Origin: Bacteriovoracaceae bacterium
GTDB lineage: Bacteria; Bdellovibrionota; Bacteriovoracia; Bacteriovoracales; Bacteriovoracaceae
Length of the DNA: 64,000 nt
Assembly (NCBI GenBank): GCA_050247975.1
Contig: JBFWTE010000021.1
Location: 272-64,271 of the forward strand
Reading direction: 5' to 3'
Positions 14,806-27,713 of the stretch are shown in pieces. Under the pieces are notes generated by a model. The model made no database searches and was not told the DNA's origin. It saw only the letters and a list, made by a program, of their open reading frames with translations. Position 1 is the first letter of the stretch, and each line of letters begins with the position of its first letter. The translations under genes and the position numbers were made by a program.

Positions 14806-15911
14806 TGACAACGGCCATAACCACAACAGCTGCTCCAAAATCTGGTGTTAGGGTTTTAAAAGCTGGAGAGATCCTTTTTAATGAGAATGATGAAGCAGGT
14901 TCACTCTTTATTATTCAAAAAGGTCAAATCAGATTGTTTAAGCCTAAAGGAAAGGGATTCATAGAACTGGCCGTCCTTAGGACAGGAGAAGTTATTGGGG
15001 AGATGGCCTATTTTGATGAAGATGGCTCTGGCAAGAAGAGATCTTGTTCTGCATCGGCCTTAACTCAAGTTGAGATTATTGAAATTTCTTTTACTGCATT
15101 TGGAAAGCAAATGCAGTCGCTTAATCCTTGGTTCAAAACGATTATCCATACCCTTGTAGCGAGATTAAAAAAAACAAATTCACGAGTTAAAGAATTGGAA
15201 GATAACCAGGCCTCCGTAAGTTATAGCGGCAAACATGCTGGCTACGAATTTATGAAGCCCATTGAGATCATGAGAATTCTTGGAACTTTATTTTTAGTTC
15301 TTAAGGCCCATGGAGAAGTGAAGGGACAGACGGTTGTAACAAATAAAAAAGTTCTCACTCTTTATACCTCGGACATGTACCAGATCATGGAGTCCAAATT
15401 AGAATCGATTCTTTCCACTCTCGTCGCTCTCAATTGGTTAGAGATAACAGAAGATGCAGATAAAAATCCAACAGTTTTAAATTTTAAAAATATCGAATTA
15501 ATTAGGCAGCTATTCATTTTTTATAACTCAGAAAGATCTCTTCCTGATGAGAAGAAAATGCGTATTTCTGAAAAGTGTGAGACTTTTATTAATAAAATTA
15601 TTGAATATCACTCTAAGAATCCACTGGTTGATATCCCTAATTTAAAAACAATTGATGGAGTAAAACCAAGGTTCACTCAGTACTATAATCTAACTCCCAT
15701 TTTGGAAGAATTTAAAAATAGAAATTTAATAATTAACCCAGAACATCTCGACGATGCTAAAAACCTAGGTTTCTTTGGTGAAGTGATCACTAAAGACAAG
15801 AATGTTTTTATTGAGGCGGATTTTCAGAAGATTGCTAAATTGCATCCTGTGATTAGTTTCGTAAATGCGATTAAAAAATCCAATGCAGAAAAATCTGCGG
15901 GCCCAGGTTAA
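14805..15911 (+). CDS. Cyclic-nucleotide-binding (Crp/Fnr-like) protein
   Basis: LFNENDEAGSLFIIQKGQI, GEMAYF...KRSCSA phosphate-binding cassette. Start overlaps thiolase stop (TAATG). Confidence 0.8.
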   Translation: MTTAITTTAAPKSGVRVLKAGEILFNENDEAGSLFIIQKGQIRLFKPKGKGFIELAVLRTGEVIGEMAYFDEDGSGKKRSCSASALTQVEIIEISFTAFGKQMQSLNPWFKTIIHTLVARLKKTNSRVKELEDNQASVSYSGKHAGYEFMKPIEIMRILGTLFLVLKAHGEVKGQTVVTNKKVLTLYTSDMYQIMESKLESILSTLVALNWLEITEDADKNPTVLNFKNIELIRQLFIFYNSERSLPDEKKMRISEKCETFINKIIEYHSKNPLVDIPNLKTIDGVKPRFTQYYNLTPILEEFKNRNLIINPEHLDDAKNLGFFGEVITKDKNVFIEADFQKIAKLHPVISFVNAIKKSNAEKSAGPG

Positions 15912-17335
15912 AGAGCTGCCGGAAAATAATCCACAGTGATTTCATCGCCGGACTTATAATAATTTGAAGAACCATTAAGCTGAATCATGAATCCAGTCTT
16001 AATTATTGCTGGTAGATCATCTCCTGAATTAGGGTAGGGCATTTTTATATTTTTATTTGTCTGGTATCCAATATAAGTCCAACCATTCGTAGAACTCTGA
16101 GGAATAACTTTACCATTTACTCTCAGTACAACAGAGGCCACTTGAGGTGCTTTTTGAATCACCACATAACCTAAATATTCAGTTCGCGAAATAGACTTTA
16201 CAATAACACAATCTGGATAGGTAATAAGATTTCCATCAGTAAAGCGAACAAAGTGTCTTCCTACGACTGCTTCACCAAGAGAAGGTAATTCTCTCGTATT
16301 TACTGAAACAGCACTTCCTTCATCAACATAAGTCCATTGAGCGTTTTTACTCAAATCTGTCTTTGAGCCATTTGAGCTTACCTTAATGACTTGAATATCG
16401 TTGATAGAAACCATTTCATTATTTTCGGCAAACGTAATTGGCCAGTAACGATAGGTATGAGGAATGAGTACTTGTTGAATTGAATTATTAACACCAGTAA
16501 AAAGTGATGAAATGCTATTAGTACATAGATTATAAAAGTCTTGATTTACATTTGAATCAGTTGCTCCAGAAAGATTATAGAGATCTTTAGCAATAGAGAT
16601 ATAAGATTTTTCAGATGAATACCATCCTGTCTTATTGCATGAAGAGTTTGCTGTTACTGAGAAGAATCTGAGTTGTTGTAAATTGAGCTGTGTCTTAATG
16701 CTTTTTAAACTATTAAGTCTTTCATTATAAATCGCGATATTCTGCAGTGTTTGTCCATTTGAATATGGAGAGTATTCGATTTCTTGATCTCGTCCATTGG
16801 AAATGAGAACCACTAATAGATAAGCACTTTGTCTAAATAGGCCACTACTTGAGTTATTACTTATAAAATCAATGACTCTTTTAGCTCCCGCTTCAGTTCC
16901 CTCTGGCTCCGGTGTATTAAAAAAATTCAATTCATCAGCAGATATAATCTTTCTTCCTGCTGCTTCAGATGATAAAGCATCCGAAGAATTAGTGATGACT
17001 TGATAATCATTATAAGGAGTCGGATCGTCTTTTACTGGTAAAAGACTTGTTCCAATCACCCTGTAATCAAATTGAGTAGAAATAGAATTAACCGTGTTCT
17101 TAATGGCATTTCGAATGTCACTTTGAAGAAAGTAGGTACTACTTGAGTTATCTACTACATAAAGGATATCAACTTTAGGTTTAATAAGAGTAAAGGAAGA
17201 GCAGCTTAATTGTTCATAAGTTTTTAAGGTGTTGGCCTGAGAAGAAGAATTTTGTCTAACGGCACCGAATTGCTCTTGGCCGCAGCCAATGAGAGTTAAA
17301 AGAATGAGCAAAAGGATTGGGCCATAAATTTTCAT
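15908..17335 (-). CDS. vWA-domain lipoprotein (CglB-like)
   Basis: Lipobox LIGC; VDILYVVDNSSS (DxSxS MIDAS); LVVLISNGRD; C-terminal beta domain VNGKVIPQ..GWTY. Confidence 0.7.
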   Translation of the reverse strand: MKIYGPILLLILLTLIGCGQEQFGAVRQNSSSQANTLKTYEQLSCSSFTLIKPKVDILYVVDNSSSTYFLQSDIRNAIKNTVNSISTQFDYRVIGTSLLPVKDDPTPYNDYQVITNSSDALSSEAAGRKIISADELNFFNTPEPEGTEAGAKRVIDFISNNSSSGLFRQSAYLLVVLISNGRDQEIEYSPYSNGQTLQNIAIYNERLNSLKSIKTQLNLQQLRFFSVTANSSCNKTGWYSSEKSYISIAKDLYNLSGATDSNVNQDFYNLCTNSISSLFTGVNNSIQQVLIPHTYRYWPITFAENNEMVSINDIQVIKVSSNGSKTDLSKNAQWTYVDEGSAVSVNTRELPSLGEAVVGRHFVRFTDGNLITYPDCVIVKSISRTEYLGYVVIQKAPQVASVVLRVNGKVIPQSSTNGWTYIGYQTNKNIKMPYPNSGDDLPAIIKTGFMIQLNGSSNYYKSGDEITVDYFPAAL

Positions 17336-17364
17336 AAAAACACCTTAAACAATTTCCTGTTATC

Positions 17365-17392
17365 TGATCGGTTAGCAGCAGGTTAAACTTTA
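17365..17392 (-). promoter_or_regulatory. Putative sigma28 (FliA) promoter of the vWA lipoprotein
   Basis: Minus strand TAAAGTTT-N12-ACCGATCA versus consensus TAAAGTTT-N11-GCCGATAA. Confidence 0.6.
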
Positions 17393-17505
17393 ATTCAGAG
17401 TTTTTTAGTCATGAATAAAAAAGAGGAAATTATTGCCATGGACTCTTTCTGCTCACTGCTGAGTTATTATAATACTAATAATCATTTCAATGGGTTGAGG
17501 AATAT

Positions 17506-18276
17506 ATGGCGGATAATTGGTATTATGTACAAAAAGGAAATCGTCACGGGCCAGTTGATTTTGGAGTTCTTGAATCTTTAATTGCGAGAGAAGAGCTTAA
17601 GCAAGAAGATTTTGTTTGGAAAAAAGGTTTTGAGAACTGGAAAAAAATTAAAGATGTGAGTGAATTAATTGCTATTCCTAAGCAGAGTTCAGCTTTAGAT
17701 CTGCCACCTGTTGAGTTTGCTGATGTGAACCTTAAAGACCTAGATTCAGAAAATAGAATTATTTATGTAAGAATTGGAATAGATCGTGGGGGAGCTTTTT
17801 CTGACTACGGACCTTTTAACATTAAACAGTTAAAGCAACTTTTTAAAGAAAATAGAATTAATGGTAAGACTCTTATATTTTGTAAAGGGATGAGAGATTG
17901 GAAAATACTTGGTGATCTTCCTGAGTATCAAGAAATTTTTCAACAAATGCCACCAGTTATTAAGGAAGTAGAACGACGAGTGAATGTGAGAAAACCTTTC
18001 ATAGCACGAATGTTCGTTCAAAATAACAAAAAAGTTTTTGAGGGTATTTGCCGAGATATTTCGATTGGCGGAATGCAAGTCTTGATAGATAACTTTCAAG
18101 GCCAATCAGGTGATAAGATAACTATTAACGTCCATCCTGAAAATACTGAATATCACTTTACTGCTTCTGGACAAGTGGTAAGAATATTAGAGGGCAACTC
18201 TGGATTTTCTTTTCGTTTTCAGGGATTATCTGAAGATGCTAAAAAATCAATAGAAAGATACGTACAAGAAAATTAA
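17506..18276 (+). CDS. Tandem GYF_2 (DUF4339) plus PilZ domain protein
   Basis: WYY..GNRHGPV...VWKKGFENWKKI; second GPF...FCKGMRDWK; PilZ RxxxR (RRVNVR) and DxSxGG (DISIGG). Confidence 0.85.
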   Translation: MADNWYYVQKGNRHGPVDFGVLESLIAREELKQEDFVWKKGFENWKKIKDVSELIAIPKQSSALDLPPVEFADVNLKDLDSENRIIYVRIGIDRGGAFSDYGPFNIKQLKQLFKENRINGKTLIFCKGMRDWKILGDLPEYQEIFQQMPPVIKEVERRVNVRKPFIARMFVQNNKKVFEGICRDISIGGMQVLIDNFQGQSGDKITINVHPENTEYHFTASGQVVRILEGNSGFSFRFQGLSEDAKKSIERYVQEN

Positions 18277-18277
18277 A

Positions 18278-19165
18278 GTGGCCAAGCAGCAACAGAATTT
18301 TAAAGTAGAAGATCACACACTACTCTCAGCAGATGGAGAGTCGACATTATTTGTACGCCATTTTTTAAAAGGTCAGTCGAATATTCATTTTCTGATTGTT
18401 CATGGAGCTATTGAGCATTCAGGTCGTCATCAAGATTTAACCCATTTTCTTTTGAAAAATTACTCAAATGTGGCGGTAACAGTTTTTGATCATGTAGGAC
18501 ATGGGAGAAGTGGAGGGGCAAGAAGCTATCTTTCTTCTTTCAAAGTTTATGTTGAAGATCTTAAAAAAGTTGGTGAATTCGTTCAGAATAAAAATCATCA
18601 AGATACTAAGACTTTTGTTTGTGCCCATAGTTTAGGTGGACTCATTGCTTTAACCTGTTTGTTAGATCCTCTGTATAGTTGGAAAATTCCAATTGCTGGC
18701 CTTATCCTTTCTAGTCCATGTGTAAGACCACGTTTAGTCTTTGGTGATATTTCTGAATCTCTTTTGCAAATTTTAGATAAAGTCACACCAAAGCTACATC
18801 TTCCAGCAATTTATGGTGGAAGGGATTTAACTCGAGACCCTGAAAGGGCAAATGATTTTGATACAGACTCACTTATCCCTAAATACATGACAGTGAGAAT
18901 GGCCAAGGAAGTAATTGAGGCCAGTCATCGAATTCGTGGATTTTCATACTATTTAAAAACGCCTAGTCTCTTTTTAATTGCCGGTGATGATAAAATTGTC
19001 GATCCTGAAAGTACAACTCTTTTCGCTCATGGGATTGATAAACGCTTGGTTCAAGTCATACAATATCCTAAACATTACCATGAATTATGGAATGAAATTG
19101 ATCGGCAAGATATATTTGAATCAATGAAAGTTTGGGTTGATAAGCAATTGAAGGAGCATCCATGA
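18278..19165 (+). CDS. Alpha/beta hydrolase (lysophospholipase / monoacylglycerol lipase type)
   Basis: LIVHGAIEHSGR, DHVGHGRS, AHSLGG nucleophile elbow, DKIVD, YHEL; GTG start. Confidence 0.9.
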   Translation: MAKQQQNFKVEDHTLLSADGESTLFVRHFLKGQSNIHFLIVHGAIEHSGRHQDLTHFLLKNYSNVAVTVFDHVGHGRSGGARSYLSSFKVYVEDLKKVGEFVQNKNHQDTKTFVCAHSLGGLIALTCLLDPLYSWKIPIAGLILSSPCVRPRLVFGDISESLLQILDKVTPKLHLPAIYGGRDLTRDPERANDFDTDSLIPKYMTVRMAKEVIEASHRIRGFSYYLKTPSLFLIAGDDKIVDPESTTLFAHGIDKRLVQVIQYPKHYHELWNEIDRQDIFESMKVWVDKQLKEHP

Positions 19166-19692
19166 AACTGATATTAGCATTTCTTCTATCTATGGCAGTT
19201 GGGTGTGCAGCTTACAAATCCTACAATCAGGAAGCAACTGGGCAAGTTGTCCTTAGAGGTGGTTACTATAAAAAACAATCTTGGCCTGATTCACTCGTTT
19301 TAAAGCGAATGAGCTGGTATCATGGGATGACTCTTTATTATGATATTTTACTTTGGAAGGCCGATCCAAATTCGCCATTTGCTAAATGGTTTTCACAAAC
19401 AGAAATGGAATTGTTTAATCGCTGTGAAAATTTATTAGTGACAGCAGGATACAGCGCAGATCCAAATAAGATCTCGCATGTTAGCTTCCGTGAGCAAATG
19501 AAACTCAATGGGTACGATGATATCGTTCTAGCTACCTTTTCTACCTTTTTAAGAGGCCATCCATCCGCCCCGGATTGGAGACTTCAGAATTATAAGATCT
19601 TGGGCTACTGTAAGCGTTCTCCAACAATGCTTGAAAATAGTAATCTCATTATTAATTTCCCAGGTTTCAAGCAGTTAGAGATTAAATTATAA
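19162..19692 (+). CDS. Hypothetical lipoprotein
   Basis: Signal peptide ending AVGC; ATGA overlap with the upstream hydrolase. Confidence 0.65.
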   Translation: MKLILAFLLSMAVGCAAYKSYNQEATGQVVLRGGYYKKQSWPDSLVLKRMSWYHGMTLYYDILLWKADPNSPFAKWFSQTEMELFNRCENLLVTAGYSADPNKISHVSFREQMKLNGYDDIVLATFSTFLRGHPSAPDWRLQNYKILGYCKRSPTMLENSNLIINFPGFKQLEIKL

Positions 19693-19729
19693 CTAAAATT
19701 TAAATCTGATTAAATTTATCAATTTGTCC

Positions 19730-19756
19730 TCAAGAAGAGCGTCCAAATACCGATAG
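19730..19756 (+). promoter_or_regulatory. Putative sigma28 (FliA) promoter of the Ser/Thr kinase
   Basis: TCAA-N15-ACCGATAG, ending 14 nt before the ATG. Confidence 0.55.
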
Positions 19757-19770
19757 GCACTTGAGGGATT

Positions 19771-21684
19771 ATGACTGAAAAGAAATTTCAACGTTTTGGA
19801 AAATACCTAATTTTGGATCATCTCGTTGATGGTGGAATGGCAAAAATTTGTCGCGCTCGCTATCTTGGTGAGCAGGCAAATAAAGTTGTGGCCATTAAAA
19901 TGGTTCAGCCTCAATTTTCAAATGATGATGCTTTTGCACGTATGTTTCAGGATGAGCTTAATATTACTTTTGGGATGCTTCATCCAAATATTATGCAGGT
20001 CTATGATTATGGTAAAACGAATGGCCAGTTATACACAGCGATGGAGTATATTCATGGGGCCAATCTAAAACAATATCTTGATCGCTTAAAAGACCGTAAA
20101 GTTGTTTTTCCTGTAGAGATTTCTTGTTACATCATCTCACAAGTATGTTTAGGCCTACATTACGCTCATACTTTCACCGATAAATTAACTGGTAAGCCTT
20201 ACAATATCGTTCATAGAGATATATCGCCTCATAATATCATGCTGACTTATGATGGAGCGGTTAAGGTTATTGATTTCGGTATCGCCAAGGCCAATACCAA
20301 CACTGAATCAACTCAAGCAGGAACTATAAAAGGGAAGTTATCTTATCTTGCTCCTGAATATTTGGATGGGCAGGAGTTAGATGCTCGTTATGATGAATTT
20401 GCAGTGGGAATTACTTTATGGGAACTTTTATGTTCACGTAAATTATTCCAAGCAAATAATGATCTGGCCGTGCTTAAACTTATTCAGGCCTGCAAAGTGA
20501 CTCCTCCTTCTCAAATTAACCCTTCAGTTCCAAAGGAGCTGGATGCAATTGTGATGAAGGCCTTGTCCAAAGATCGATCTCAAAGATATGAAAATCTTGA
20601 TCAAATGAACCGAGCACTGGTGAAGTTTTTATATTCTCATTATCCTGAATTTAATGCTTCCGATCTAAAAACATTTGCTGATGATTTATTTAAAACAGAA
20701 ATGGCGATGGATAAGGAAAAGTTTGTTGAATATGGAAAAATTGATATTCAGCCGTATATTGAGGATTTAAAGCGAGAAGAAAGTAAAGCTTCTAGAACAG
20801 TTAAAGGTCAAGTCCTTCCAGAAAGAAGTGAAATTGTTGAACTTGAACTTGATATTGATAACAATACTGGAATTGAAATTGCCAATGACGTTCACAAAAC
20901 GACAACTAGAAAGTTAGTTAAAAATTCTGCCGGGCCAGCTAAGCCTCAGCCCCCTAAATCGAACAAGGCAGAAGCTTCTGTTATTACCAAAAAGGCAGAT
21001 GAGAAGAACCAAACTAAAATGAGTTCTCGTAAAGAGATGAAAAAAGAATCCCACAGTTCATCTCCGATTATTATTTTTATTATTGCTGCTTCATTTGCTG
21101 GATTTGCATATTTTCAACCTGAACTAGTTGAAAGTATTTTTGGGATAAATTTAAAAAATCTGATTGATGGTACTGATCAATCTCGTTCTGTCTCTTCAGT
21201 AGAAAGTGTCAAAAAGCACAAATCAAATTCAACTCTGGAAGAAGTCGCTAATGGAACAGGGGAAGTCGTTTTAAGAGGTGTAGATATTTCGATGGAAGTC
21301 TTTATAGATGGTGTAAAAACTGAATATGTTGGACGACCAATTTTAGTGAATTTAAATCAAGAGATTACTTTAAGTGTTAAGAAGAAAGGGCATATGCCTT
21401 TCAGTACAAAGGTTAACTTAAATGATACAACTCGCTCTGTTGTGGTCAATATTCCAGAATTAGAAAGAGCGCGGATTGGCTTATTAAGTTCTTCTTTGAA
21501 TTATACATCTGGCTCTAAGCTTATCTACACAGAAGGTGGAGAAGTGGTAGAGAGAGAACTTCCTCTTAAAGATGTGCCAATCACTGAAGGGACTTATGAG
21601 GCAAAGATTGTTAATCCAATTCTAGGAACGGAAAAGAAAGTAGAATTTTCAATTGAAGAAAATAAGAAGCACTTCTTAGAGTAA
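19771..21684 (+). CDS. Membrane Hanks-type Ser/Thr protein kinase with extracytoplasmic PEGA-like domain
   Basis: VAIK, HRDISPHN, DFG, YLAPE; TM segment IIIFIIAASFAGFAYF; C-terminal EVFIDG beta repeats. Confidence 0.92.
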   Translation: MTEKKFQRFGKYLILDHLVDGGMAKICRARYLGEQANKVVAIKMVQPQFSNDDAFARMFQDELNITFGMLHPNIMQVYDYGKTNGQLYTAMEYIHGANLKQYLDRLKDRKVVFPVEISCYIISQVCLGLHYAHTFTDKLTGKPYNIVHRDISPHNIMLTYDGAVKVIDFGIAKANTNTESTQAGTIKGKLSYLAPEYLDGQELDARYDEFAVGITLWELLCSRKLFQANNDLAVLKLIQACKVTPPSQINPSVPKELDAIVMKALSKDRSQRYENLDQMNRALVKFLYSHYPEFNASDLKTFADDLFKTEMAMDKEKFVEYGKIDIQPYIEDLKREESKASRTVKGQVLPERSEIVELELDIDNNTGIEIANDVHKTTTRKLVKNSAGPAKPQPPKSNKAEASVITKKADEKNQTKMSSRKEMKKESHSSSPIIIFIIAASFAGFAYFQPELVESIFGINLKNLIDGTDQSRSVSSVESVKKHKSNSTLEEVANGTGEVVLRGVDISMEVFIDGVKTEYVGRPILVNLNQEITLSVKKKGHMPFSTKVNLNDTTRSVVVNIPELERARIGLLSSSLNYTSGSKLIYTEGGEVVERELPLKDVPITEGTYEAKIVNPILGTEKKVEFSIEENKKHFLE

Positions 21685-22560
21685 TTATTCCTCTGTCTTC
21701 GTATCATCAAACCGCTTTGATTGCTTGAAGCGATTAACTTTTCTCATATTAAGAAGTTTAATAATTTCAGCAGCTGTTTCTTCCAGTGCTTTTCCTGTCA
21801 CATTGAAGATAGGCCACCTTTTATTTTCAGCGAAAATTTTATTGGCCCATTCAATTTCTTCAGTTACTTTTGAAATATCAGCATAATCACCTTCATCATT
21901 TGATAGTCCTAAACGGGTGAGGCGATTTTTTCTGATTTGAAATAAGGCTTCTGAATCAATTGTTAATCCAAAAATTTTTCTTTGATCTACTTGGAAAAGT
22001 TTTTCAGGCAGTGCGACTCCCATGACAATGGGAACATTAACAACTTTGATTCCCTCTAAGGAAAGGTACATTGAGAGTGGGGTCTTAGAAGTTCTCGAGA
22101 TACCAACAAGAATGACATCTGCTTCTTCGAGAGAATTCATATTTCTGCCATCATCATGGTTAAGAGTAAATTCTATGGCGGCCACTCTTTTAAAGTATTG
22201 ATCATTAACTGCGTGAAGAAGGCCTGGTTGATAGTTAGGTTCTGCCTCAAAAAAATTAGAAAAAGCACCTAAGAGAGGACCCATCACATCCACTGAACGA
22301 ACGTGGTCTCGCTTGGAAAGTTCTGCAATATAAGTGCGCAGCTCTACTGAAACAATGGTGTAAACAACAATGTCATGATGGATGGCCGCTTCTTTAAAAA
22401 TGGCGTCGATTTGCTCTTTTGTTCTGATATTTTTATAACGAGTAAAGAAAATTTCTTTTTCTTGAAACTGTGTCATCGCCGCACGGGTAATGGCCGACGC
22501 TGTTTCTCCAGTACCATCAGAAATGACTATCACTTTTAATTTATCATTAGCTTGCATCAT
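21685..22560 (-). CDS. ppsR: PEP synthase / pyruvate phosphate dikinase regulatory protein (DUF299)
   Basis: VISDGTGETA, FTLNHDDG, GISRTSKTP. Confidence 0.92.
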   Translation of the reverse strand: MMQANDKLKVIVISDGTGETASAITRAAMTQFQEKEIFFTRYKNIRTKEQIDAIFKEAAIHHDIVVYTIVSVELRTYIAELSKRDHVRSVDVMGPLLGAFSNFFEAEPNYQPGLLHAVNDQYFKRVAAIEFTLNHDDGRNMNSLEEADVILVGISRTSKTPLSMYLSLEGIKVVNVPIVMGVALPEKLFQVDQRKIFGLTIDSEALFQIRKNRLTRLGLSNDEGDYADISKVTEEIEWANKIFAENKRWPIFNVTGKALEETAAEIIKLLNMRKVNRFKQSKRFDDTKTEE

Positions 22561-22635
22561 ATGCTTTTCGAGTTGAGGGTGAGGTTAAAAACTACTAATA
22601 TAGTTACACATATTTTAACTTAAGTAGGAGTCGAA

Positions 22636-23670
22636 ATGCATCTAAGAAAAACAATCTTTCTATCTATTTCTGTGCTCTCAATGAATGCTCATGCAGTTTT
22701 TAAAGCACTGCCAAAGGAAGTTCCAGTTCCTAAAGATAATCCAATGACTCCGGCCAAAATTGAACTTGGTAAGATGTTATTTTTTGATCCAAGATTATCG
22801 ATGGATGGAACTGTCTCATGTAATTCTTGTCACAATGTTATGTTCCATGGTGGAGATGGCCGTCCAGTTGGTGTTGGAGTTCATGGTCAGCGTGGAGGTC
22901 GCGGTTCTCCTACTGTTTGGAACTCTGCTTATCAAACAGTTCAGTTTTGGGATGGACGAGCAGCAACTTTAGAGGATCAGGCCAAAGGCCCTCTTGTCAA
23001 TAATGTTGAAATGGGAATGAGCTCACATGATTTTGTGATTGAGCGCCTTAATCGAATTCCTGGTTATACAGAATATTTTAGAAAAGCATTTCCTAAAGAT
23101 AAGAATCCAATCAATATCGATAATCTTGCGAAGGCAATTGCTACGTATGAGAGAACACTTGTTACTCCAAATTCTCCTTTTGATAAATATATGCGTGGTA
23201 ATAAAAAAGCTTTATCGGCCCAACAGATTCGTGGGATGAAGTTGGTGGATGAAATCGGGTGTACATCTTGCCATACTGGCGACAACTTTTCTGGAGAAGG
23301 TTTCAAGATGGGCGAAGGTAATTATCAGCCTTTCCCTCAAATTCCAGGATCAAAGTATGATAAAATGTATGATTTAACTTCTGATAAAGGTCGCTATGAA
23401 GTGACTAAAAAAGATGAAGATAAGAATCTTTGGCGTGTTCCGACTTGGAGAAACGTTGCGATTACAGCTCCATATTTTCATAATGGAAAAGTTAAAACTC
23501 TTGATGAGGCCGTACGTGTGATGGGTAAAACTCAACTTGGTATGGATTTAACTGATGCTCAGGTTGAAGATATCGTAGCTTTTTTAAATTCATTAACGGG
23601 CGAATTTCCAAAGCAAACTATGCCAATGTTACCTAACACCGCTAATTTTACAGTTACTCCAGAGCCATAA
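22636..23670 (+). CDS. Di-heme cytochrome c peroxidase (CcpA/MauG family)
   Basis: Signal peptide; CNSCH and CTSCH; FWDGRA..LEDQA; PYFHNG. Confidence 0.93.
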   Translation: MHLRKTIFLSISVLSMNAHAVFKALPKEVPVPKDNPMTPAKIELGKMLFFDPRLSMDGTVSCNSCHNVMFHGGDGRPVGVGVHGQRGGRGSPTVWNSAYQTVQFWDGRAATLEDQAKGPLVNNVEMGMSSHDFVIERLNRIPGYTEYFRKAFPKDKNPINIDNLAKAIATYERTLVTPNSPFDKYMRGNKKALSAQQIRGMKLVDEIGCTSCHTGDNFSGEGFKMGEGNYQPFPQIPGSKYDKMYDLTSDKGRYEVTKKDEDKNLWRVPTWRNVAITAPYFHNGKVKTLDEAVRVMGKTQLGMDLTDAQVEDIVAFLNSLTGEFPKQTMPMLPNTANFTVTPEP

Positions 23671-23677
23671 ATAATGA

Positions 23678-23703
23678 GGCCCTCTAACGAGGGCCAAATT
23701 TTT
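23678..23703. terminator. Probable intrinsic terminator
   Basis: GGCCCTC-TAAC-GAGGGCC then AAATTTTT, between convergent genes. Confidence 0.65.
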
Positions 23704-23705
23704 TA

Positions 23706-24089
23706 TTAGAGATTATTAATGAGATCGACAACTTCTTCAAATGAGAGTTCCTTACCTTGTGCAAGGGCCTCAGCTTGAATTTTTTCAACAGTTGATTCAA
23801 GTGCAGCCGAAGAAGATCCTTCAGCAGCAAAAGCAAGCGCTTCTGGTTTTACTTCTTGAACTTCTTTCATAAGTGCAACCGTCACAGCAACACCAGCTCC
23901 CAATGCTGTCAGCGCGAGAAGTTTATCACAAGCTTCCTCATAACCTTTCGAGCATCCTGTGGTAAAAATGGCGGCCTGTGCAGCAGTCGTGCCAGCTAAA
24001 GCAGCACTCACAACACCAACGGCAAAAGAATTTTGTGCAATAAAAATAGAAAGAGAGGCAAGAATTAAAGCTTTGCGGATGGATTTCAT
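23706..24089 (-). CDS. Small secreted Ala-rich protein (weakly DUF2388-like)
   Basis: Signal peptide ending SFA; one Cys pair; C-terminal EALAFAAEG..AALE..EEVVDLI; RBS AGGAG. Confidence 0.6.
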   Translation of the reverse strand: MKSIRKALILASLSIFIAQNSFAVGVVSAALAGTTAAQAAIFTTGCSKGYEEACDKLLALTALGAGVAVTVALMKEVQEVKPEALAFAAEGSSSAALESTVEKIQAEALAQGKELSFEEVVDLINNL

Positions 24090-24167
24090 TTTTTCTCCTT
24101 GGGATGGCGATTTTGATTTGACGCACAGTATAGCATCAAAGGATTTGCCGGTTAAGAATTGAAAATT

Positions 24168-25109
24168 TTACAATCCAAGAAACTTTGAGACTTTTAAAAA
24201 GATGAGTTCGCGCTCTTTAAGTGGATGAAAGGTCGTTTTGAGAGGATCACGTTTAAACCAAGTTCTTTGAGATTTGGCGAGTTGTCTGGTGGAAATAATA
24301 ATTCTCTCTCTACATTCAGAAATGGATTTATAGATCCCAAAATGGAAATCGAGAATTTCTTTATATCCAATAGATTGAAGAGGTTTTTCTAGTCCACTAA
24401 AACCTTGATCCAGAAGAGACTTTACTTCGCCCAGAAGATCAAGTCCTAGCATCTTATCAGTTCTTCTCTCAATTATTTTAAGATGTTCTTCTTTTGGTAA
24501 ATCAAGATGAAGATGAAGTATTTCCCAATTATGGATACTTTGTGATTCTAATTTTTCATTGGCCTGATCTTTTTTTTCTCTTGCTGTTGAGAGTGGAGTT
24601 TTATTGGCCCACCAATGTTCAACCGCCCGTCTTATCCGGTAATGATCATTCTCATGATAGCGAGAAAAACTTTGTGGATCGTGTATTTTCAAAAGTTCGA
24701 GAAAAGGAGCAATCCCTTCTTGATGATAAAGATCATCAGATTTTTTTAAAATCTCAGCAGGGGTAGAAGGGGAATCGTACATTCCTTTTAAAAGGGCCTG
24801 AAGATAGAAACCACTTCCACCTACGAGGTAAACAATCTTATTTTGTTTGAGAAGTTGATCGACTATGGGTAAGGCCTCACGAGCATAATCTGCTGCGTTC
24901 ATTGGATTTGATATGCTTCGTACATCAATCATATGATGAGGAATAAGTCTTCTCTCTTCGATTGTAGGTTTTGCTGTTCCAATATTAATTTCTTTATAAA
25001 GTAAAAGAGAATCGAAATTGACGATTTCCCCGCCAAACTTTTGAGCAAGTTCAATGCTGATTTCTGTTTTTCCTGTTGCTGTTGGACCTGAGATGACAAT
25101 GACTTTCAC
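24168..25109 (-). CDS. miaA: tRNA dimethylallyltransferase
   Basis: GPTATGKT, NFDSLLLYKEINIGTAKP, VGGSGFY, QSIGYKE, QLAKSQRTWF. Confidence 0.95.
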   Translation of the reverse strand: MKVIVISGPTATGKTEISIELAQKFGGEIVNFDSLLLYKEINIGTAKPTIEERRLIPHHMIDVRSISNPMNAADYAREALPIVDQLLKQNKIVYLVGGSGFYLQALLKGMYDSPSTPAEILKKSDDLYHQEGIAPFLELLKIHDPQSFSRYHENDHYRIRRAVEHWWANKTPLSTAREKKDQANEKLESQSIHNWEILHLHLDLPKEEHLKIIERRTDKMLGLDLLGEVKSLLDQGFSGLEKPLQSIGYKEILDFHFGIYKSISECRERIIISTRQLAKSQRTWFKRDPLKTTFHPLKERELIFLKVSKFLGL

Positions 25110-26698
25110 TTTAATCGATCCTTTAACAAGGCCTCTAATTCAGCAATGATTTTTTTCTCTATCAGAACATCAATTTTAAAATGAGTCAGCATTTCATGCC
25201 AGGTCGAAGAAGCCCATTCAGCAGGAATTAATTTTAATTCAGTAAGTTTTTTTTCTTCCAGGAGATGACTGACAATATCCCTTAATGGAAAACCATTCAT
25301 CCAATCGGGAATGGCCCTTAGTACCAGTGTTTCAGCTCCTAAATTTTCAATCTCGAATCCTGCATTTTGAAGTTTCAGGATGACTTCTTTACTCACTCCT
25401 CGAGAAGGGTATGGCTCACTTACTAATAATGGAATACTTAAACTTTGAGTATTCATTTTATTGGAGACAAATTCTTCCAAGAGTTTTGAGCAATTAATGG
25501 CCATCCAATTCATTTCATATTTTGTCATTAGAAAATTTCCAACCCAATAAAAATCGCTTTTTTCTTGTTGGATATTGTGAGGAGAAAAAAGTCCTTCCAT
25601 ATTGTAATCATGTCTTTGCTGAAGCAAAGAAGGGGGAGCATCTTGGAAGGAAGACAGAAAATCGGATGGAGGTAAAGGAGTAGAAGAAACTGGTGAAATC
25701 GGTTTTCTTCCTTGAGCAAGCTCTTTAATGGTGGAAGAAAGCAGACTAATCATCTTTGATGTTTCTAAACATTTAATGAGAGTTTTATTTGGATGCACAT
25801 TAACATCGATGTGATCCGCTGGAAGATGAAAGAAAACAAGATAATTATATTCTTCTTCGCCAAAGGATGAAATTAGAGCATTGCTTAATACTTTATGTAG
25901 CTGTTTATCTAGAACATATCTCCCATTGATGAAGATGTATTGCCATTTAATGGGAAGTTTTAAAAAAGAGGGAATGAGATAAACCTCGAGCTCATTGTCT
26001 TCATAAAATTTTTCAGAATAAAGAAGTAATCCTTTAGATTTTGGGACTATTTCTTCTATCCTCGTTTTTAAATCTTGAGCTGCATGGAATATTTCTTTCT
26101 CGTCATCTTCAAATTTAACAATAAATTCAATTTGAGGGTGTGAGAGAATAAAAGCGTAAATAGTCTTTTTTAGAAATTGCTTTTCTGCTTGTTGAGTTTG
26201 GATAAATTTCAAACGGGCAGGTGTATTAAAGAACAAATCTTGAATGACTAGTTCAGTACCTTGATTACCCTGAACTTGCTTCTTGCCATGGTAGATTGTT
26301 TGTCCACCTTCAATTCGAATTTCAGATCCTTCACCGCTACTCAGATAAGAATGGCATTGTACTCTGGCAATGGCAGCGATTGAGGCCAATGCTTCACCTC
26401 GAAATCCAAATGAGTGCAATTGATAAAGATCTTCGAATCGTTTAATTTTGGAAGTTGCATGACGAGAGAATGCCAACGGAAGATCATTAAATGTCATTCC
26501 ATGGCCATTGTCTTTTAATGAGATAAGATCTAGTCCATTATTCTTTATATGAAGTTCTATCCTGGTTGCTCCAGCATCGATAGAGTTTTCTAAAATTTCT
26601 TTGATTAAACTTCCTGGCCGCTCGATTACTTCTCCGGCCTTAATCTGATCTATCAGATGTTCTGGAAGTAAATCGATTTTAGGCGGAGAGAGAGTCAT
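25106..26698 (-). CDS. mutL: DNA mismatch repair protein MutL (short C-terminus)
   Basis: IKAGEVIERP, ENSIDAGAT, DNGHGM, HATSKI, GFRGEALASI, DVNVHPNK; adjacent to miaA. Confidence 0.92.
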   Translation of the reverse strand: MTLSPPKIDLLPEHLIDQIKAGEVIERPGSLIKEILENSIDAGATRIELHIKNNGLDLISLKDNGHGMTFNDLPLAFSRHATSKIKRFEDLYQLHSFGFRGEALASIAAIARVQCHSYLSSGEGSEIRIEGGQTIYHGKKQVQGNQGTELVIQDLFFNTPARLKFIQTQQAEKQFLKKTIYAFILSHPQIEFIVKFEDDEKEIFHAAQDLKTRIEEIVPKSKGLLLYSEKFYEDNELEVYLIPSFLKLPIKWQYIFINGRYVLDKQLHKVLSNALISSFGEEEYNYLVFFHLPADHIDVNVHPNKTLIKCLETSKMISLLSSTIKELAQGRKPISPVSSTPLPPSDFLSSFQDAPPSLLQQRHDYNMEGLFSPHNIQQEKSDFYWVGNFLMTKYEMNWMAINCSKLLEEFVSNKMNTQSLSIPLLVSEPYPSRGVSKEVILKLQNAGFEIENLGAETLVLRAIPDWMNGFPLRDIVSHLLEEKKLTELKLIPAEWASSTWHEMLTHFKIDVLIEKKIIAELEALLKDRLK

Positions 26699-27610
26699 TT
26701 ATCCCTTAAAAAAGTTTACTTGATTCCTACCAGCTTCTTTAGATTTATAAACTGCAGAGTCCGCACGTTTAAACAAATCCGTTCCAGAGTTTACACCCTG
26801 TCGATAATCTGCAACGCCAATAGAGGCGGTTACTGGTAAGCGCTTTCCATCATAGATGAACTCATGCTTTTCTACCAATTTTCTTAATCGCTCGGCAATC
26901 TCAAAACCTTGTTTGAGATTTGTATTTGGTAGAAGAACACAAAATTCTTCCCCTCCATACCTAGCAAACACGTCACCTTGGCGAATTCCATGTTCACGAA
27001 TAATTCTTGCCTTTTCTTTTAAAACAAAATCACCCGCATCATGGCCAAAGTTATCGTTGAGCTTTTTAAAATGATCGAGATCAAAAATGATAAGAGTAAG
27101 TGGTTTCCCGGTAACTTTACTTTTTTTAACTTCTAGTTCGAGTTGATTGTTAAAAAAGTTTTTATTGTAACACTTGGTGAGACCATCTGTATTGGCCTCC
27201 TCAAGAAGTTTGTCATAGGTTAAACGCTCTGGATCGCCTTTAGGAATGTATTTTAAAGCGATGGAGCCGATTTTAATAATATCTGCTTTTTTAAGAACTA
27301 ATGGTTGAGTTACTTTCTGATCGTTAAGATATGTTCCATTGGCCGATCCTAAATCAGTCAAGGTGACTTCATTTTCCTCAACAGTAATGGTGAAGTGTCT
27401 TCGAGAGATACCATGAAAGTCTAAGCAAATATTGCAATCAGGGTTTCGGCCAACAAATGTATCACCAAGATTCAAATTGAAAATGGAGCCATTCAGTTCA
27501 CCACCAACAACGAGTAAGCATGCAGGCTTTTGCTTGGCCTCTTCTTCAGTTGCTGTGAGCGCCTTATGAATGTCGGTAATTAAAACGGTTGAATTTTTGT
27601 CCTGACTCAT
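26699..27610 (-). CDS. FHA-GGDEF diguanylate cyclase (DgcB-like)
   Basis: FHA motifs GR, SRRH, DLGSANGT; DGLTKCYN; I-site RQGD; GGEEF. GGAG RBS favours start 27610. Confidence 0.92.
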   Translation of the reverse strand: MSQDKNSTVLITDIHKALTATEEEAKQKPACLLVVGGELNGSIFNLNLGDTFVGRNPDCNICLDFHGISRRHFTITVEENEVTLTDLGSANGTYLNDQKVTQPLVLKKADIIKIGSIALKYIPKGDPERLTYDKLLEEANTDGLTKCYNKNFFNNQLELEVKKSKVTGKPLTLIIFDLDHFKKLNDNFGHDAGDFVLKEKARIIREHGIRQGDVFARYGGEEFCVLLPNTNLKQGFEIAERLRKLVEKHEFIYDGKRLPVTASIGVADYRQGVNSGTDLFKRADSAVYKSKEAGRNQVNFFKG

Positions 27611-27687
27611 TAATAGCTCCAAATATCCACTTGTTACTTAATCATTTTAGGGCCAAGCCTAACTTTGAGCAAGTAAACCACAATGGC

Positions 27688-27713
27688 GTATCGGAATTAC
27701 TTAAGACTTTTTA
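27688..27713 (-). promoter_or_regulatory. Putative sigma28 promoter of the FHA-GGDEF gene
   Basis: Minus strand TAAA-N14-TCCGATAC; the -35 lies in the last codons of pgi. Confidence 0.45.

What the first reader, a model, noticed from the sequence alone, without database searches (positions are those of the whole stretch)
15908..27713. Candidate sigma28-controlled kinase / c-di-GMP / adhesin module
Seen: within about 12 kb lie a vWA lipoprotein, a GYF-GYF-PilZ protein, a membrane Hanks kinase and an FHA-GGDEF cyclase. Three of the four have FliA-like promoters (TAAAGTTT-N12-ACCGATCA, TCAA-N15-ACCGATAG, TAAA-N14-TCCGATAC). Established: FliA promoters mark Bdellovibrio attack-phase genes; FHA-GGDEF DgcB is needed for prey entry and is activated via a phospho-Thr tail; PilZ binds c-di-GMP. 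Inference: the kinase phosphorylates the cyclase tail, and the c-di-GMP is read by the PilZ protein, coupling surface contact to adhesion or gliding.
Basis: partly seen in the sequence, partly recalled or inferred. Interest (0 to 1): 0.75.

Follow-up and report, generated by a model that had tools for sequence, protein, structure and literature searches.

The report
Attack-phase kinase beside DgcB cyclase
In this predatory-bacterium (Bacteriovoracaceae) genome, the membrane kinase already suspected of switching on the prey-entry cyclase DgcB lies a few kilobases from it, and two (probably three) of the four named genes carry real flagellar-sigma (sigma-28) promoters, but the four genes are neighbouring older gene blocks rather than one proven module.

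Summary
All four genes and their domains are present.

**Promoters**
- The vWA lipoprotein site scores 22.1 bits against a matrix built from this genome. The kinase site scores 17.7 bits.
- Both sites are conserved in 88-95% of 80 related species. Eleven control genes show such sites in 0-2%.
- The FHA-GGDEF site is weak here (9.3 bits). A matching GCCGATAAG about 80 nt upstream of the start is conserved in its closer relatives.

**Identity of the parts**
- The kinase is the reciprocal-best ortholog of B. bacteriovorus Bd3148. Bd3148's sigma-28 promoter was mapped experimentally, and Meek et al. 2019 already named it as the candidate DgcB kinase.
- The cyclase is the Bd0742/DgcB ortholog. It keeps the tail Thr with a hydrophobic residue at +3.

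**The "module" reading is only partly supported**
- The gene order is nearly invariant within Bacteriovoracaceae, but pgi, mutL, miaA and ppsR are equally conserved there.
- Outside the family the three blocks are unlinked. These are vWA<>GYF-PilZ-hydrolase, the kinase, and pgi-dgcB-mutL-miaA.
- Outside the family only the kinase keeps a sigma-28 site.
- The genome also has a kinase-less FHA/PP2C cluster, so the kinase probably has several clients.

Kinase acting on the DgcB tail is plausible (about 0.5). A dedicated PilZ or adhesin output is speculative.

The parts
15908..17335 (-). vWA-domain lipoprotein (475 aa) with a C-terminal beta-sandwich region
   Evidence: LIGC lipobox and invariant D62-N63-x-x-S66. 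AF2 pLDDT 82.8. Foldseek hits to integrin beta I-like, TRAP and RrgA, E 1e-8.
17363..17393 (-). Sigma-28 (FliA) type promoter of the lipoprotein: TTAAAGTTT-N-ACCGATCAGA. The -10 element is at 17366-17371.
   Evidence: 22.1 bits, rank 26 of promoter-position hits genome-wide. Orthologous sites have median 21.0 bits, and 95% reach >=12 bits in 58 relatives.
17506..18276 (+). GYF_2-GYF_2-PilZ protein (256 aa), a candidate c-di-GMP receptor with no sigma-28 site
   Evidence: Pfam GYF_2 2.9e-27 and PilZ 9.8e-15. RVNVR and DISIGG motifs. Best PWM score upstream is -3, and 0 of 60 relatives reach >=12 bits.
18278..19165 (+). alpha/beta hydrolase (Hydrolase_4, lysophospholipase-like), 1 nt after the PilZ gene
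   Evidence: Pfam 2.4e-51. The PilZ-hydrolase pair is kept in 8 of 10 genomes of other families.
19162..19692 (+). 176-aa lipoprotein of unknown function; its start overlaps the hydrolase stop
   Evidence: AVGC lipobox. Present upstream of the kinase in 46 of 48 relatives. No Pfam family.
19729..19758 (+). Sigma-28 type promoter of the kinase: CTCAAG-N-ACCGATAGGC. The -10 element is at 19750-19755.
   Evidence: 17.7 bits. 88% of 76 relatives reach >=12 bits. Also found outside the family. The HD100 ortholog's site has a mapped attack-phase TSS.
19771..21684 (+). Membrane Hanks Ser/Thr kinase (637 aa) with a PEGA-like ectodomain; ortholog of Bd3148
   Evidence: Pkinase 2.3e-39. AF2 shows TM 433-448 and beta-sandwiches at 495-637. 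Reciprocal best hit with Bd3148. Bd3148 has PEGA at 1.6e-18.
21685..22560 (-). PpsR-like kinase/pyrophosphorylase, the last gene of the dgcB-side block
   Evidence: Pfam 2.1e-94. Syntenic with miaA-mutL-dgcB across the phylum.
22636..23670 (+). Di-haem cytochrome c peroxidase, a variable insert
   Evidence: Pfam 8.4e-63. Present in only about half of the relatives.
24168..25109 (-). miaA
   Evidence: Pfam IPPT 8.5e-63.
25106..26698 (-). mutL; its start abuts the dgcB stop
   Evidence: Pfam and ORF coordinates.
26699..27610 (-). FHA-GGDEF diguanylate cyclase (303 aa), ortholog of B. bacteriovorus DgcB (Bd0742)
   Evidence: FHA 7.9e-22 and GGDEF 9.6e-45. Tail MSQDKNS-T8-VLI matches HD100 K13-T14-SIV. 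GGEEF and RQGD I-site are readable. Single-copy ortholog in 145 of 151 genomes of the phylum.
27686..27714 (-). Weak sigma-28-like site upstream of dgcB: TTAAAAAG-N-TCCGATACGC. The -10 element, at 27689-27694, lies just after the pgi stop.
   Evidence: 9.3 bits, rank 1328 genome-wide. A positionally homologous GCCGATAAG about 80 nt upstream is kept in close relatives (median 12.8 bits, 54% >=12, against 0-2% for controls). Absent outside the family.
27697..28926 (-). pgi, the phylum-wide upstream neighbour of dgcB
   Evidence: Pfam PGI 1.2e-33. pgi-dgcB adjacency in HD100 and many other families.

Best explanation
The stretch is a gene order found within Bacteriovoracaceae and nearly invariant there. 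It places three older, separately conserved units side by side.

- Unit A: a sigma-28-driven vWA lipoprotein, transcribed divergently from a GYF-GYF-PilZ / alpha-beta-hydrolase / small-lipoprotein operon.
- Unit B: a sigma-28-driven membrane Hanks kinase with a PEGA-like periplasmic domain. It is the ortholog of B. bacteriovorus Bd3148.
- Unit C: pgi-dgcB-mutL-miaA-ppsR. Here dgcB is the ortholog of Bd0742 and keeps its N-terminal Thr with a hydrophobic residue at +3.

Likely mechanism:
1. In the attack phase, sigma-28 (FliA) transcribes the kinase and the lipoprotein. This step is shown by motif statistics, conservation and the mapped TSS of the HD100 ortholog. In this family sigma-28 probably also adds to dgcB transcription (inferred).
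2. On an envelope cue read by its ectodomain, the kinase phosphorylates Thr8 of DgcB. It probably also phosphorylates the other FHA proteins of the genome (inferred).
3. The phospho-tail binds the FHA domain and releases cyclase activity, as established for HD100 DgcB.
4. The c-di-GMP is read by several PilZ proteins, of which GYF-PilZ is only one candidate (speculative).

The neighbours are neither one operon nor a phylum-wide gene cluster.

Sub-probabilities: sigma-28 control of the kinase and lipoprotein 0.9; of dgcB 0.6; kinase phosphorylates the DgcB tail 0.5; GYF-PilZ is the dedicated receiver 0.2; the vWA lipoprotein belongs to the same pathway 0.15.
For: - Domains.
- The own-genome sigma-28 matrix is enriched in promoter positions and hits flagellin genes.
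- Sites score 22.1 and 17.7 bits.
- Conservation of sites in 21 and then 80 relatives, against 11 control genes.
- The Bd3148 promoter TTAAGGATTATTTTTATTTTACCGATAG has a mapped attack-phase TSS and is marked as carrying a FliA motif. It is the same site my matrix finds.
- Reciprocal best hit with Bd3148, and PEGA in Bd3148.
- DgcB tail Thr conserved across 41 genomes.
- FHA, GGEEF and I-site residues aligned with HD100 DgcB.
- Only two Pkinase-domain proteins in a 100%-complete genome. The other is a cytoplasmic 1841-aa Pkinase-AAA-GAF-PAS-HisKA protein.
- Only two GGDEF proteins.
- Block structure: within the family dgcB is linked in 48 of 51 loci and PilZ/vWA in 46 of 48. Outside the family, dgcB stays with pgi/mutL/miaA but never with the kinase (0 of 20). 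The kinase has none of these neighbours (0 of 16). PilZ stays with the hydrolase (8 of 10).
- Meek 2019 states that the DgcB T14 kinase is unidentified and names Bd3148 as a candidate.
Against: - There is no expression or TSS data for this organism. It is a landfill MAG and no RNA runs were found.
- The dgcB site scores at background level in this genome (9.3 bits).
- HD100 dgcB is not attack-phase specific.
- Synteny within the family is equally strong for housekeeping genes, so it says little about function.
- One 98%-complete genome keeps the kinase but lacks FHA-GGDEF, so the kinase has other roles.
- A kinase-less FHA x3 / PP2C / T2SS-F cluster is an alternative main client.
- No direct evidence of phosphotransfer, and no interaction model could be run.
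Confidence: 0.55

Rival explanations
1. One reading: a dedicated four-gene module. The kinase senses surface contact and phosphorylates DgcB. The DgcB-made c-di-GMP is read specifically by the neighbouring GYF-GYF-PilZ protein. The output is adhesion or gliding through the vWA lipoprotein, all co-regulated by sigma-28.
For: - All four genes are adjacent in 94-96% of 80 Bacteriovoracaceae species.
- Within this family, three of the four carry sigma-28-like sites. For the lipoprotein and dgcB these sites exist only in the family where the genes are clustered with the kinase.
- PilZ, hydrolase, lipoprotein and kinase are co-directional with overlaps or small gaps.
- The genome has only two cyclases.
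Against: - The PilZ gene has no sigma-28 site.
- PilZ's deep partner is the hydrolase, and it is unlinked to the kinase in other families.
- There are 9-12 PilZ proteins in the genome.
- In two genera the kinase stays with the dgcB block but has lost the PilZ/vWA block (L008 and L009). In others the reverse holds (G015, G012).
- Housekeeping genes are interleaved and equally syntenic.
- No evidence links the vWA lipoprotein to c-di-GMP.
Confidence: 0.15
2. Inherited synteny only. The kinase does not act on DgcB. Its clients are the other FHA proteins (for example the FHA x3 / PP2C / T2SS-F pilus-type cluster on contig C25). The DgcB tail is phosphorylated by another kinase, such as the 1841-aa Pkinase-AAA-GAF-PAS-HisKA protein, or by none.
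For: - Adjacency is confined to one family with generally frozen gene order.
- The kinase is retained in a genome without FHA-GGDEF.
- At least seven other FHA-domain loci exist, plus a PP2C with no kinase of its own.
- A second Pkinase-domain protein exists.
- HD100 dgcB and bd3148 are 2.35 Mb apart and expressed differently.
Against: - HD100 has a single genuine Pkinase gene, yet its DgcB needs pThr14. By elimination this points to Bd3148.
- The tail Thr and the kinase are both nearly universal in the phylum.
- Meek 2019 reports a Sorangium kinase-tail-FHA-GGDEF fusion whose kinase domain is closest to Bd3148.
Confidence: 0.25
3. The sigma-28-like strings are chance matches in AT-rich intergenic DNA and carry no regulatory meaning.
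For: - The dgcB site scores 9.3 bits. In the 9-10 bit bin, intergenic density is only about 1.5 times coding density.
Against: - The lipoprotein and kinase sites rank 26th and 71st among promoter-position hits.
- They are conserved in 88-95% of relatives, against 0-2% for controls.
- The orthologous HD100 site has a mapped TSS.
Confidence: 0.03

Closest known systems
B. bacteriovorus DgcB (Bd0742) and its proposed kinase Bd3148 (Meek et al. 2019, PMC6733907)
   Same: - The cyclase has the same FHA-GGDEF architecture, GGEEF and RxxD sites, and a tail Thr with a hydrophobic +3 residue. It is the single-copy best hit and keeps pgi as its upstream neighbour.
- The kinase is the reciprocal best hit of Bd3148, with the same Pkinase-TM-PEGA layout and the same sigma-28 promoter position.
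   Different: - Here the two genes are 5 kb apart and convergent. In HD100 they are 2.35 Mb apart.
- Here and in close relatives, dgcB has a sigma-28-like site that HD100 lacks.
- The kinase follows a PilZ/hydrolase/lipoprotein operon, not the Bd3149-3153 genes (AMP-binding enzymes, formyl transferase, UbiA).
- The kinase-substrate relation is unproven in both organisms.
FliA (sigma-28) attack-phase regulon of B. bacteriovorus (Karunker et al. 2013, PMC3627812)
   Same: - The motif is the same: TTAAG-N16-CCGATA there, [CT]T[AC]AAGTTTT-N10/11-nCCGA[TA]AAG here.
- The regulon is large and mostly non-flagellar (about 80-100 strong promoter-position sites here). It includes surface proteins and the Bd3148 ortholog.
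   Different: - Attack-phase specificity is not measured in this organism.
- Seventeen strong sites here sit exactly where the TSS would coincide with the start codon (leaderless). I did not find this described in the papers I read.
Self-tail FHA regulators GarA/OdhI phosphorylated by PknB/PknG (Actinobacteria)
   Same: An N-terminal Thr-containing tail of an FHA protein is phosphorylated by a Hanks kinase and then binds its own FHA domain.
   Different: The output there is steric control of TCA-cycle enzymes, not a fused GGDEF domain. There is no relationship beyond the FHA and kinase folds.
PpkA-Fha1-PppA threonine phosphorylation pathway of the P. aeruginosa H1-T6SS
   Same: It combines a membrane Hanks kinase, a vWA domain, FHA-protein clients, a PP2C phosphatase and accessory lipoproteins that sense an envelope cue.
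   Different: - Here the vWA domain is on a separate lipoprotein, not on the kinase ectodomain, which is PEGA-like.
- No T6SS genes are nearby.
- The PP2C and most FHA proteins lie on another contig, next to a T2SS-F-type gene.
- This is an analogy only.

Membership tests
DgcB-type FHA-GGDEF cyclase (Bd0742 orthologs) | N-terminal FHA domain fused to a C-terminal GGDEF domain | tested here: met
   Pfam FHA 7.9e-22 (residues 56-119) and GGDEF 9.6e-45 (143-301).
DgcB-type FHA-GGDEF cyclase (Bd0742 orthologs) | Disordered N-terminal tail with a conserved Thr and a hydrophobic residue at +3 (T14/V17 in HD100) | tested here: met
   T8 and I11 in MSQDKNSTVLITDI. The Thr is invariant in 21 family and 20 out-of-family orthologs. 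The HD100 row reproduces the published KTSIV.
DgcB-type FHA-GGDEF cyclase (Bd0742 orthologs) | Catalytic GG(D/E)EF motif, RxxD I-site, and FHA pThr-binding Arg/Ser/Arg/Asn | tested here: met
   GGEEF and RQGD read directly. GR54, S69-R70 and N91 align with HD100 R61, S75-R76 and N97. HD100 T96 is Ala here.
DgcB-type FHA-GGDEF cyclase (Bd0742 orthologs) | Orthology: single-copy best hit and conserved pgi-dgcB neighbourhood | tested here: met
   145 of 151 genomes of the phylum have one full-length match. pgi is directly upstream in HD100 and many other families.
DgcB-type FHA-GGDEF cyclase (Bd0742 orthologs) | Activated by tail phosphorylation; required for prey entry | not testable with these tools
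   Needs biochemistry and genetics.
Bd3148-type membrane Hanks kinase | Active Pkinase domain (VAIK, HRD..N, DFG, APE) | tested here: met
   Pfam 2.3e-39. The motifs are read in P0003 and are invariant in 21 orthologs.
Bd3148-type membrane Hanks kinase | One TM helix followed by a PEGA ectodomain | tested here: inconclusive
   AF2 shows a TM helix at 433-448 and two beta-sandwiches at 495-637 with pLDDT 82-91. PEGA reaches only E 0.017 in 3 of 21 family members, but 1.6e-18 in Bd3148.
Bd3148-type membrane Hanks kinase | Reciprocal best hit with Bd3148 | tested here: met
   The window kinase finds a single hit in the HD100-sized genome, at 3,060,232 (1e-97). This lies within Karunker's coordinates for Bd3148, 3,060,220-3,062,181. 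The reverse search gives 7.6e-97, with the next hit at 1e-12.
Sigma-28 (FliA) dependent promoter | Match to the organism's own -35/-10 matrix, above background | tested here: met
   Lipoprotein 22.1 bits and kinase 17.7 bits, with an FDR of a few per cent at >=16 bits. dgcB scores 9.3 bits, so this feature is not met for dgcB in this genome alone.
Sigma-28 (FliA) dependent promoter | Site conserved at the same position in orthologous upstream regions | tested here: met
   Share of relatives with >=12 bits: lipoprotein 95%, kinase 88%, dgcB 54%, eleven control genes 0-2%.
Sigma-28 (FliA) dependent promoter | TSS 8-9 nt downstream of the -10 element, attack-phase specific, FliA dependent | not testable with these tools
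   No RNA runs for this MAG. The orthologous Bd3148 promoter has a mapped attack-phase TSS.
vWA-domain lipoprotein | Lipobox, vWA (Rossmann-like) fold and a DxSxS MIDAS motif | tested here: met
   LIGC lipobox, DNSSS motif with D62 and S66 invariant, and vWA matches by Foldseek. Sequence profiles alone failed.
PilZ c-di-GMP receptor | PilZ domain with RxxxR and (D/N)xSxxG motifs | tested here: met
   Pfam 9.8e-15. RVNVR and DISIGG in P0004. Binding itself was not tested.
Conserved functional gene cluster (kinase + cyclase + PilZ + vWA) | Linkage maintained beyond the background synteny of the lineage | tested here: not met
   Linked in 48 of 51 family loci, but so are pgi, mutL, miaA and ppsR. 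Unlinked in 0 of 20, 0 of 16 and 0 of 10 out-of-family tests.

The most novel reading that the evidence does not exclude
In Bacteriovoracaceae, evolution has assembled an attack-phase signalling supercluster. The phylum-wide, sigma-28-driven PEGA kinase was brought next to dgcB. In the same lineage, dgcB and a vWA lipoprotein newly acquired sigma-28 promoters. A GYF-GYF-PilZ / lipid-hydrolase / small-lipoprotein operon was placed directly upstream of the kinase. On this reading, envelope contact is sensed by the lipoproteins together with the PEGA domain, and the signal runs through pThr-DgcB and c-di-GMP to a PilZ-controlled hydrolase or scaffold acting at the prey-contact site.
Probability: 0.12. 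Interest if true: 0.75.

Novelty: new variant of a known kind. Interest (0 to 1): 0.48.

Why it matters
Which kinase phosphorylates Thr14 of DgcB, the switch that licenses Bdellovibrio to enter prey, was left open by Meek et al. 2019. I found no later paper that answers it.

This window shows three things about a whole sister family of predators:
- The ortholog of their candidate kinase (Bd3148) lies a few kilobases from dgcB in about 94% of species.
- The kinase keeps its experimentally validated sigma-28 promoter across the phylum.
- dgcB has gained a similar site in this family.

This is independent but circumstantial comparative support for the Bd3148-DgcB pairing.

It also points to cultured strains with the same gene order for a direct test, such as Peredibacter sp. 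HCB2-198 (L100). It flags a conserved GYF-PilZ / hydrolase pair and a kinase-less FHA/PP2C cluster as further parts of the network. It does not establish a new type of system.

Tried and rejected
- An EM refinement of the promoter matrix with a fixed score threshold drifted towards AT-rich sequence. Site counts rose from 106 to 674 over the iterations. I replaced it with a top-70 refinement.
- Six-mer strand asymmetry in upstream regions was dominated by the reverse complements of divergent start codons and was uninformative.
- Pfam, PDB phmmer and a PDB profile search all failed to identify the vWA domain. Only the fold comparison worked.
- The generic sigma-70 and terminator scan found fewer promoter-like sites than shuffled sequence and gave no promoter for the PilZ operon.
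- The search for sequencing runs found only metagenomic DNA runs, so no expression test was possible.
- A literature search for GYF plus PilZ returned nothing relevant.
- A co-loss test in six genomes without a strong DgcB hit was uninformative or mildly negative. The kinase is present in all six, and five of them are incomplete or have borderline DgcB matches.
- I did not run a fold search on the full kinase model, because the kinase domain would dominate the matches.
- I first rejected the dgcB site as chance on the single-genome score. I revised this after the 80-species comparison.

Full report
**1. What is in the sequence**

The window is part of a 3.84-Mb, 100%-complete MAG with about 37% G+C, assembled from a landfill metagenome. 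Its closest named relatives are Bacteriovoracaceae, Bacteriovorax, Peredibacter and Halobacteriovoraceae.

Between 15.9 and 28.9 kb the ORFs are as follows:

| Coordinates | Strand | Product |
|---|---|---|
| 15908-17335 | - | 475-aa lipoprotein |
| 17506-18276 | + | GYF_2-GYF_2-PilZ |
| 18278-19165 | + | alpha/beta hydrolase (Hydrolase_4) |
| 19162-19692 | + | 176-aa lipoprotein (AVGC lipobox) |
| 19771-21684 | + | Hanks kinase |
| 21685-22560 | - | PpsR-like kinase/pyrophosphorylase |
| 22636-23670 | + | di-haem cytochrome c peroxidase |
| 23706-24089 | - | 127-aa ORF |
| 24168-25109 | - | miaA |
| 25106-26698 | - | mutL |
| 26699-27610 | - | FHA-GGDEF |
| 27697-28926 | - | pgi, followed by two acyl-CoA dehydrogenases |

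So the four genes of the finding are real, but seven others lie among them. dgcB abuts mutL-miaA without a gap.

The vWA call for the lipoprotein could not be confirmed by sequence searches. It was confirmed by fold. An AF2 model built on 17 orthologs (pLDDT 82.8) matches integrin beta I-like domains, Plasmodium TRAP and the RrgA pilus adhesin (E about 1e-8). The DNSxS MIDAS motif is invariant.

**2. Are the promoters more than chance?**

TAAA-N15-17-CCGATA occurs 52 times in the genome. Of these, 27 are in the 8% of sequence that is intergenic and 24 are in promoter position. Scrambled -10 controls give 4-7 intergenic hits.

I derived a two-block matrix from the genome itself. Its consensus is [CT]T[AC]AAGTTTT-N10/11-nCCGA[TA]AAG, essentially the TTAAG-N16-CCGATA reported for Bdellovibrio attack-phase promoters. 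At >=16 bits it gives 88 intergenic and 29 coding hits. It also finds 18-20-bit sites upstream of 4 of 8 flagellin genes, which were not used to build it. A FliA gene is present.

| Site | Score (bits) | Rank among promoter-position hits |
|---|---|---|
| lipoprotein | 22.1 | 26 |
| kinase | 17.7 | 71 |
| dgcB | 9.3 | 179 (1328 genome-wide) |

These are the only two intergenic hits of >=16 bits in the whole 64-kb window.

**3. Phylogenetic footprinting**

I fetched the orthologous regions of 20 genera of the family and later of 80 named species. For each gene I scored the best matrix hit in the 220 nt upstream. In the 80-species set:

| Gene | Median score (bits) | Share with >=12 bits |
|---|---|---|
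| vWA lipoprotein | 21.0 | 95% |
| kinase | 17.2 | 88% |
| dgcB | 12.8 | 54% |
| eleven other genes | -1.9 to 3.1 | 0-2% |

The dgcB hits are positionally homologous. A GCCGATAAG sits about 80 nt before the ATG, immediately after the pgi stop codon, in most species with >=70% DgcB identity. The window's TCCGATACGC is a degraded copy of this element. I therefore rate the third site as probably functional (0.6) even though its single-genome score is at background.

The PilZ gene never has such a site.

Outside the family:
- The kinase ortholog keeps a CCGATA site in 8 of 16 genomes, including HD100.
- dgcB has none in 20 genomes. HD100 scores -4.7.
- The vWA lipoprotein ortholog has none in 3 genomes.

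**4. Identity of the kinase and the cyclase**

One genome in the panel is a single contig of 3,782,950 bp. I recall this as the size of HD100. Its DgcB N-terminus, MAHNDDNSDNLEKTSIV, is exactly the corrected Bd0742 start given by Meek et al..

The only strong match to the window kinase in that genome is at 3,060,232. It is also that genome's only genuine Pkinase hit. Karunker's Table S2 lists Bd3148 at 3,060,220-3,062,181. It records an attack-phase TSS at 3,060,201, the promoter TCATATTTGAAACTCCTTAAGGATTATTTTTATTTTACCGATAGTCTTCTC, and "FliA: yes". That is the site my matrix picked.

The reverse search returns the window kinase (7.6e-97, next hit 1e-12). Bd3148 has a PEGA ectodomain (1.6e-18). 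The window protein has a TM helix and two confident beta-sandwiches in the same place, with only weak PEGA hits in 3 of 21 relatives.

The cyclase aligns with Bd0742 over its whole length. It keeps GGEEF, the RxxD I-site, the FHA Arg/Ser-Arg/Asn residues, and a tail Thr (T8) with Ile at +3. That Thr is invariant in all 41 orthologs examined.

Meek et al. state that the T14 kinase is unidentified and put forward Bd3148. Searches found no later identification.

**5. Is it a module?**

Within the family the order is nearly fixed:

thiolase-cNMP | vWA(-) <> GYFPilZ-hydrolase-lipoprotein-kinase(+) >< ppsR-[CCP]-miaA-mutL-dgcB-pgi-acd(-)

- dgcB lies within 10 kb of the kinase in 48 of 51 loci with enough flank. 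PilZ and vWA lie upstream in 46 of 48.
- From the first panel, the kinase and dgcB are within 12 kb in 45 relatives. My hand count gives about four clearly unlinked cases, with the rest too fragmented to tell.
- The housekeeping genes are conserved just as well, so this synteny does not discriminate.

In 20 genomes of other families:
- dgcB stays with pgi, acd, mutL, miaA and ppsR, but is never within 9.5 kb of the kinase, PilZ or vWA genes.
- The kinase has none of the window's neighbours (0 of 16).
- GYF-PilZ stays with the alpha/beta hydrolase (8 of 10), and sometimes with the vWA lipoprotein, thiolase and cNMP genes.

The region is therefore three older blocks joined in one family.

Rearrangements inside the family cut both ways. 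In two genera the kinase sits co-directionally after dgcB-mutL-miaA-ppsR and has lost the PilZ block (L008 and L009). In others the kinase and dgcB are 64 kb apart or on different large contigs.

One pattern does favour some coordination. The sigma-28 sites on dgcB and on the lipoprotein exist only in the family where these genes are clustered with the kinase.

**6. Network context**

- The genome has two GGDEF proteins and 9-12 PilZ proteins.
- It has two Pkinase-domain proteins. These are the window kinase and a cytoplasmic 1841-aa Pkinase-AAA_16-GAF-PAS-HisKA-HATPase protein.
- It has at least seven further FHA-domain loci.
- One of these is a cluster PilZ ... T2SS-F - FHA - FHA - FHAx2/TPR - PP2C that has no kinase of its own.

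The window kinase is therefore very likely a multi-client enzyme, as Meek et al. predicted for the DgcB kinase.

A 98%-complete genome of another family keeps the kinase but has no full-length FHA-GGDEF.

In HD100, dgcB is expressed at 35 RPKM in attack phase and 89 in growth phase, and is flagged growth-phase specific. Sigma-28 control of dgcB cannot be assumed from Bdellovibrio.

**7. Verdict**

The third promoter is confirmed only through conservation.

- Sigma-28 control of the kinase and the lipoprotein is solid.
- The kinase-to-DgcB-tail step is plausible (about 0.5). It was already proposed for the HD100 orthologs, and here it gains circumstantial comparative support.
- The roles of the PilZ protein and the vWA lipoprotein in the same pathway are speculative (0.2 and 0.15).

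It is best described as a family-specific variant arrangement of a known or hypothesised signalling pair, not a new kind of system.

Noticed in passing
Genome-wide (e.g. C12:97359, C30:37267, C6:82030); none in the finding's region: Of 104 promoter-position sigma-28 sites scoring >=14 bits, 17 have the -10 element ending exactly 9 nt before the start codon (CCGATAAGnnnnnnATG). No other distance occurs more than 6 times. Given the HD100 TSS offset, these would be leaderless mRNAs. Most encode proteins with signal peptides.
   Followed up: partly
window 24168-28926; L021-L040: The order acd-pgi-dgcB-mutL-miaA-ppsR is conserved across many families of the phylum. dgcB takes the first position of a mutL-miaA operon-like unit, with no gap before mutL and a 4-nt overlap between mutL and miaA. 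The pgi-dgcB adjacency noted for Bdellovibrio (PMC8354745) is therefore much more widespread.
   Followed up: partly
window 17506-19165; L057-L065: GYF-GYF-PilZ followed immediately by a Hydrolase_4 alpha/beta hydrolase is a conserved pair in 8 of 10 genomes of other families. This suggests a c-di-GMP-controlled lipase or esterase. I found no literature on GYF-PilZ proteins.
   Followed up: partly
own genome contig C25 (L148:1750-11602): A cluster of a PilZ protein, a T2SS-F-type platform protein, three FHA proteins (four FHA domains, one with PAS and one with TPR) and a PP2C phosphatase, with no kinase. It is a likely second client set for the window kinase.
   Followed up: partly
own genome contig C9 (L147:1272-6797, minus strand): An 1841-aa protein that combines Pkinase, AAA_16, GAF, PAS, HisKA and HATPase domains, a Ser/Thr-kinase / histidine-kinase hybrid. 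It lies about 10 kb from two flagellin genes.
   Followed up: no
window 19162-19692: The 176-aa ORF just upstream of the kinase is a lipoprotein (MKLILAFLLSMAVGC). It is kept there in 46 of 48 relatives and has no Pfam family. It may be a periplasmic partner of the kinase ectodomain.
   Followed up: partly
own genome C47:2158-2787: A second FliA/WhiG-like sigma factor gene scores 180 bits, just under the TIGR02479 cut-off. The clear FliA is on C45 (272 bits).
   Followed up: no
window 23678-23695: A perfect 7-bp GC-rich hairpin with T-runs on both strands lies between the convergent peroxidase gene and the 127-aa ORF. It looks like a bidirectional terminator.
   Followed up: no
window 27610-27622: The longest-ORF start of dgcB (TTG at 27622) is probably wrong. 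The ATG at 27610 is preceded by GGAG at the right distance, and it matches the N-termini (MS[DN]D...) of all orthologs.
   Followed up: yes
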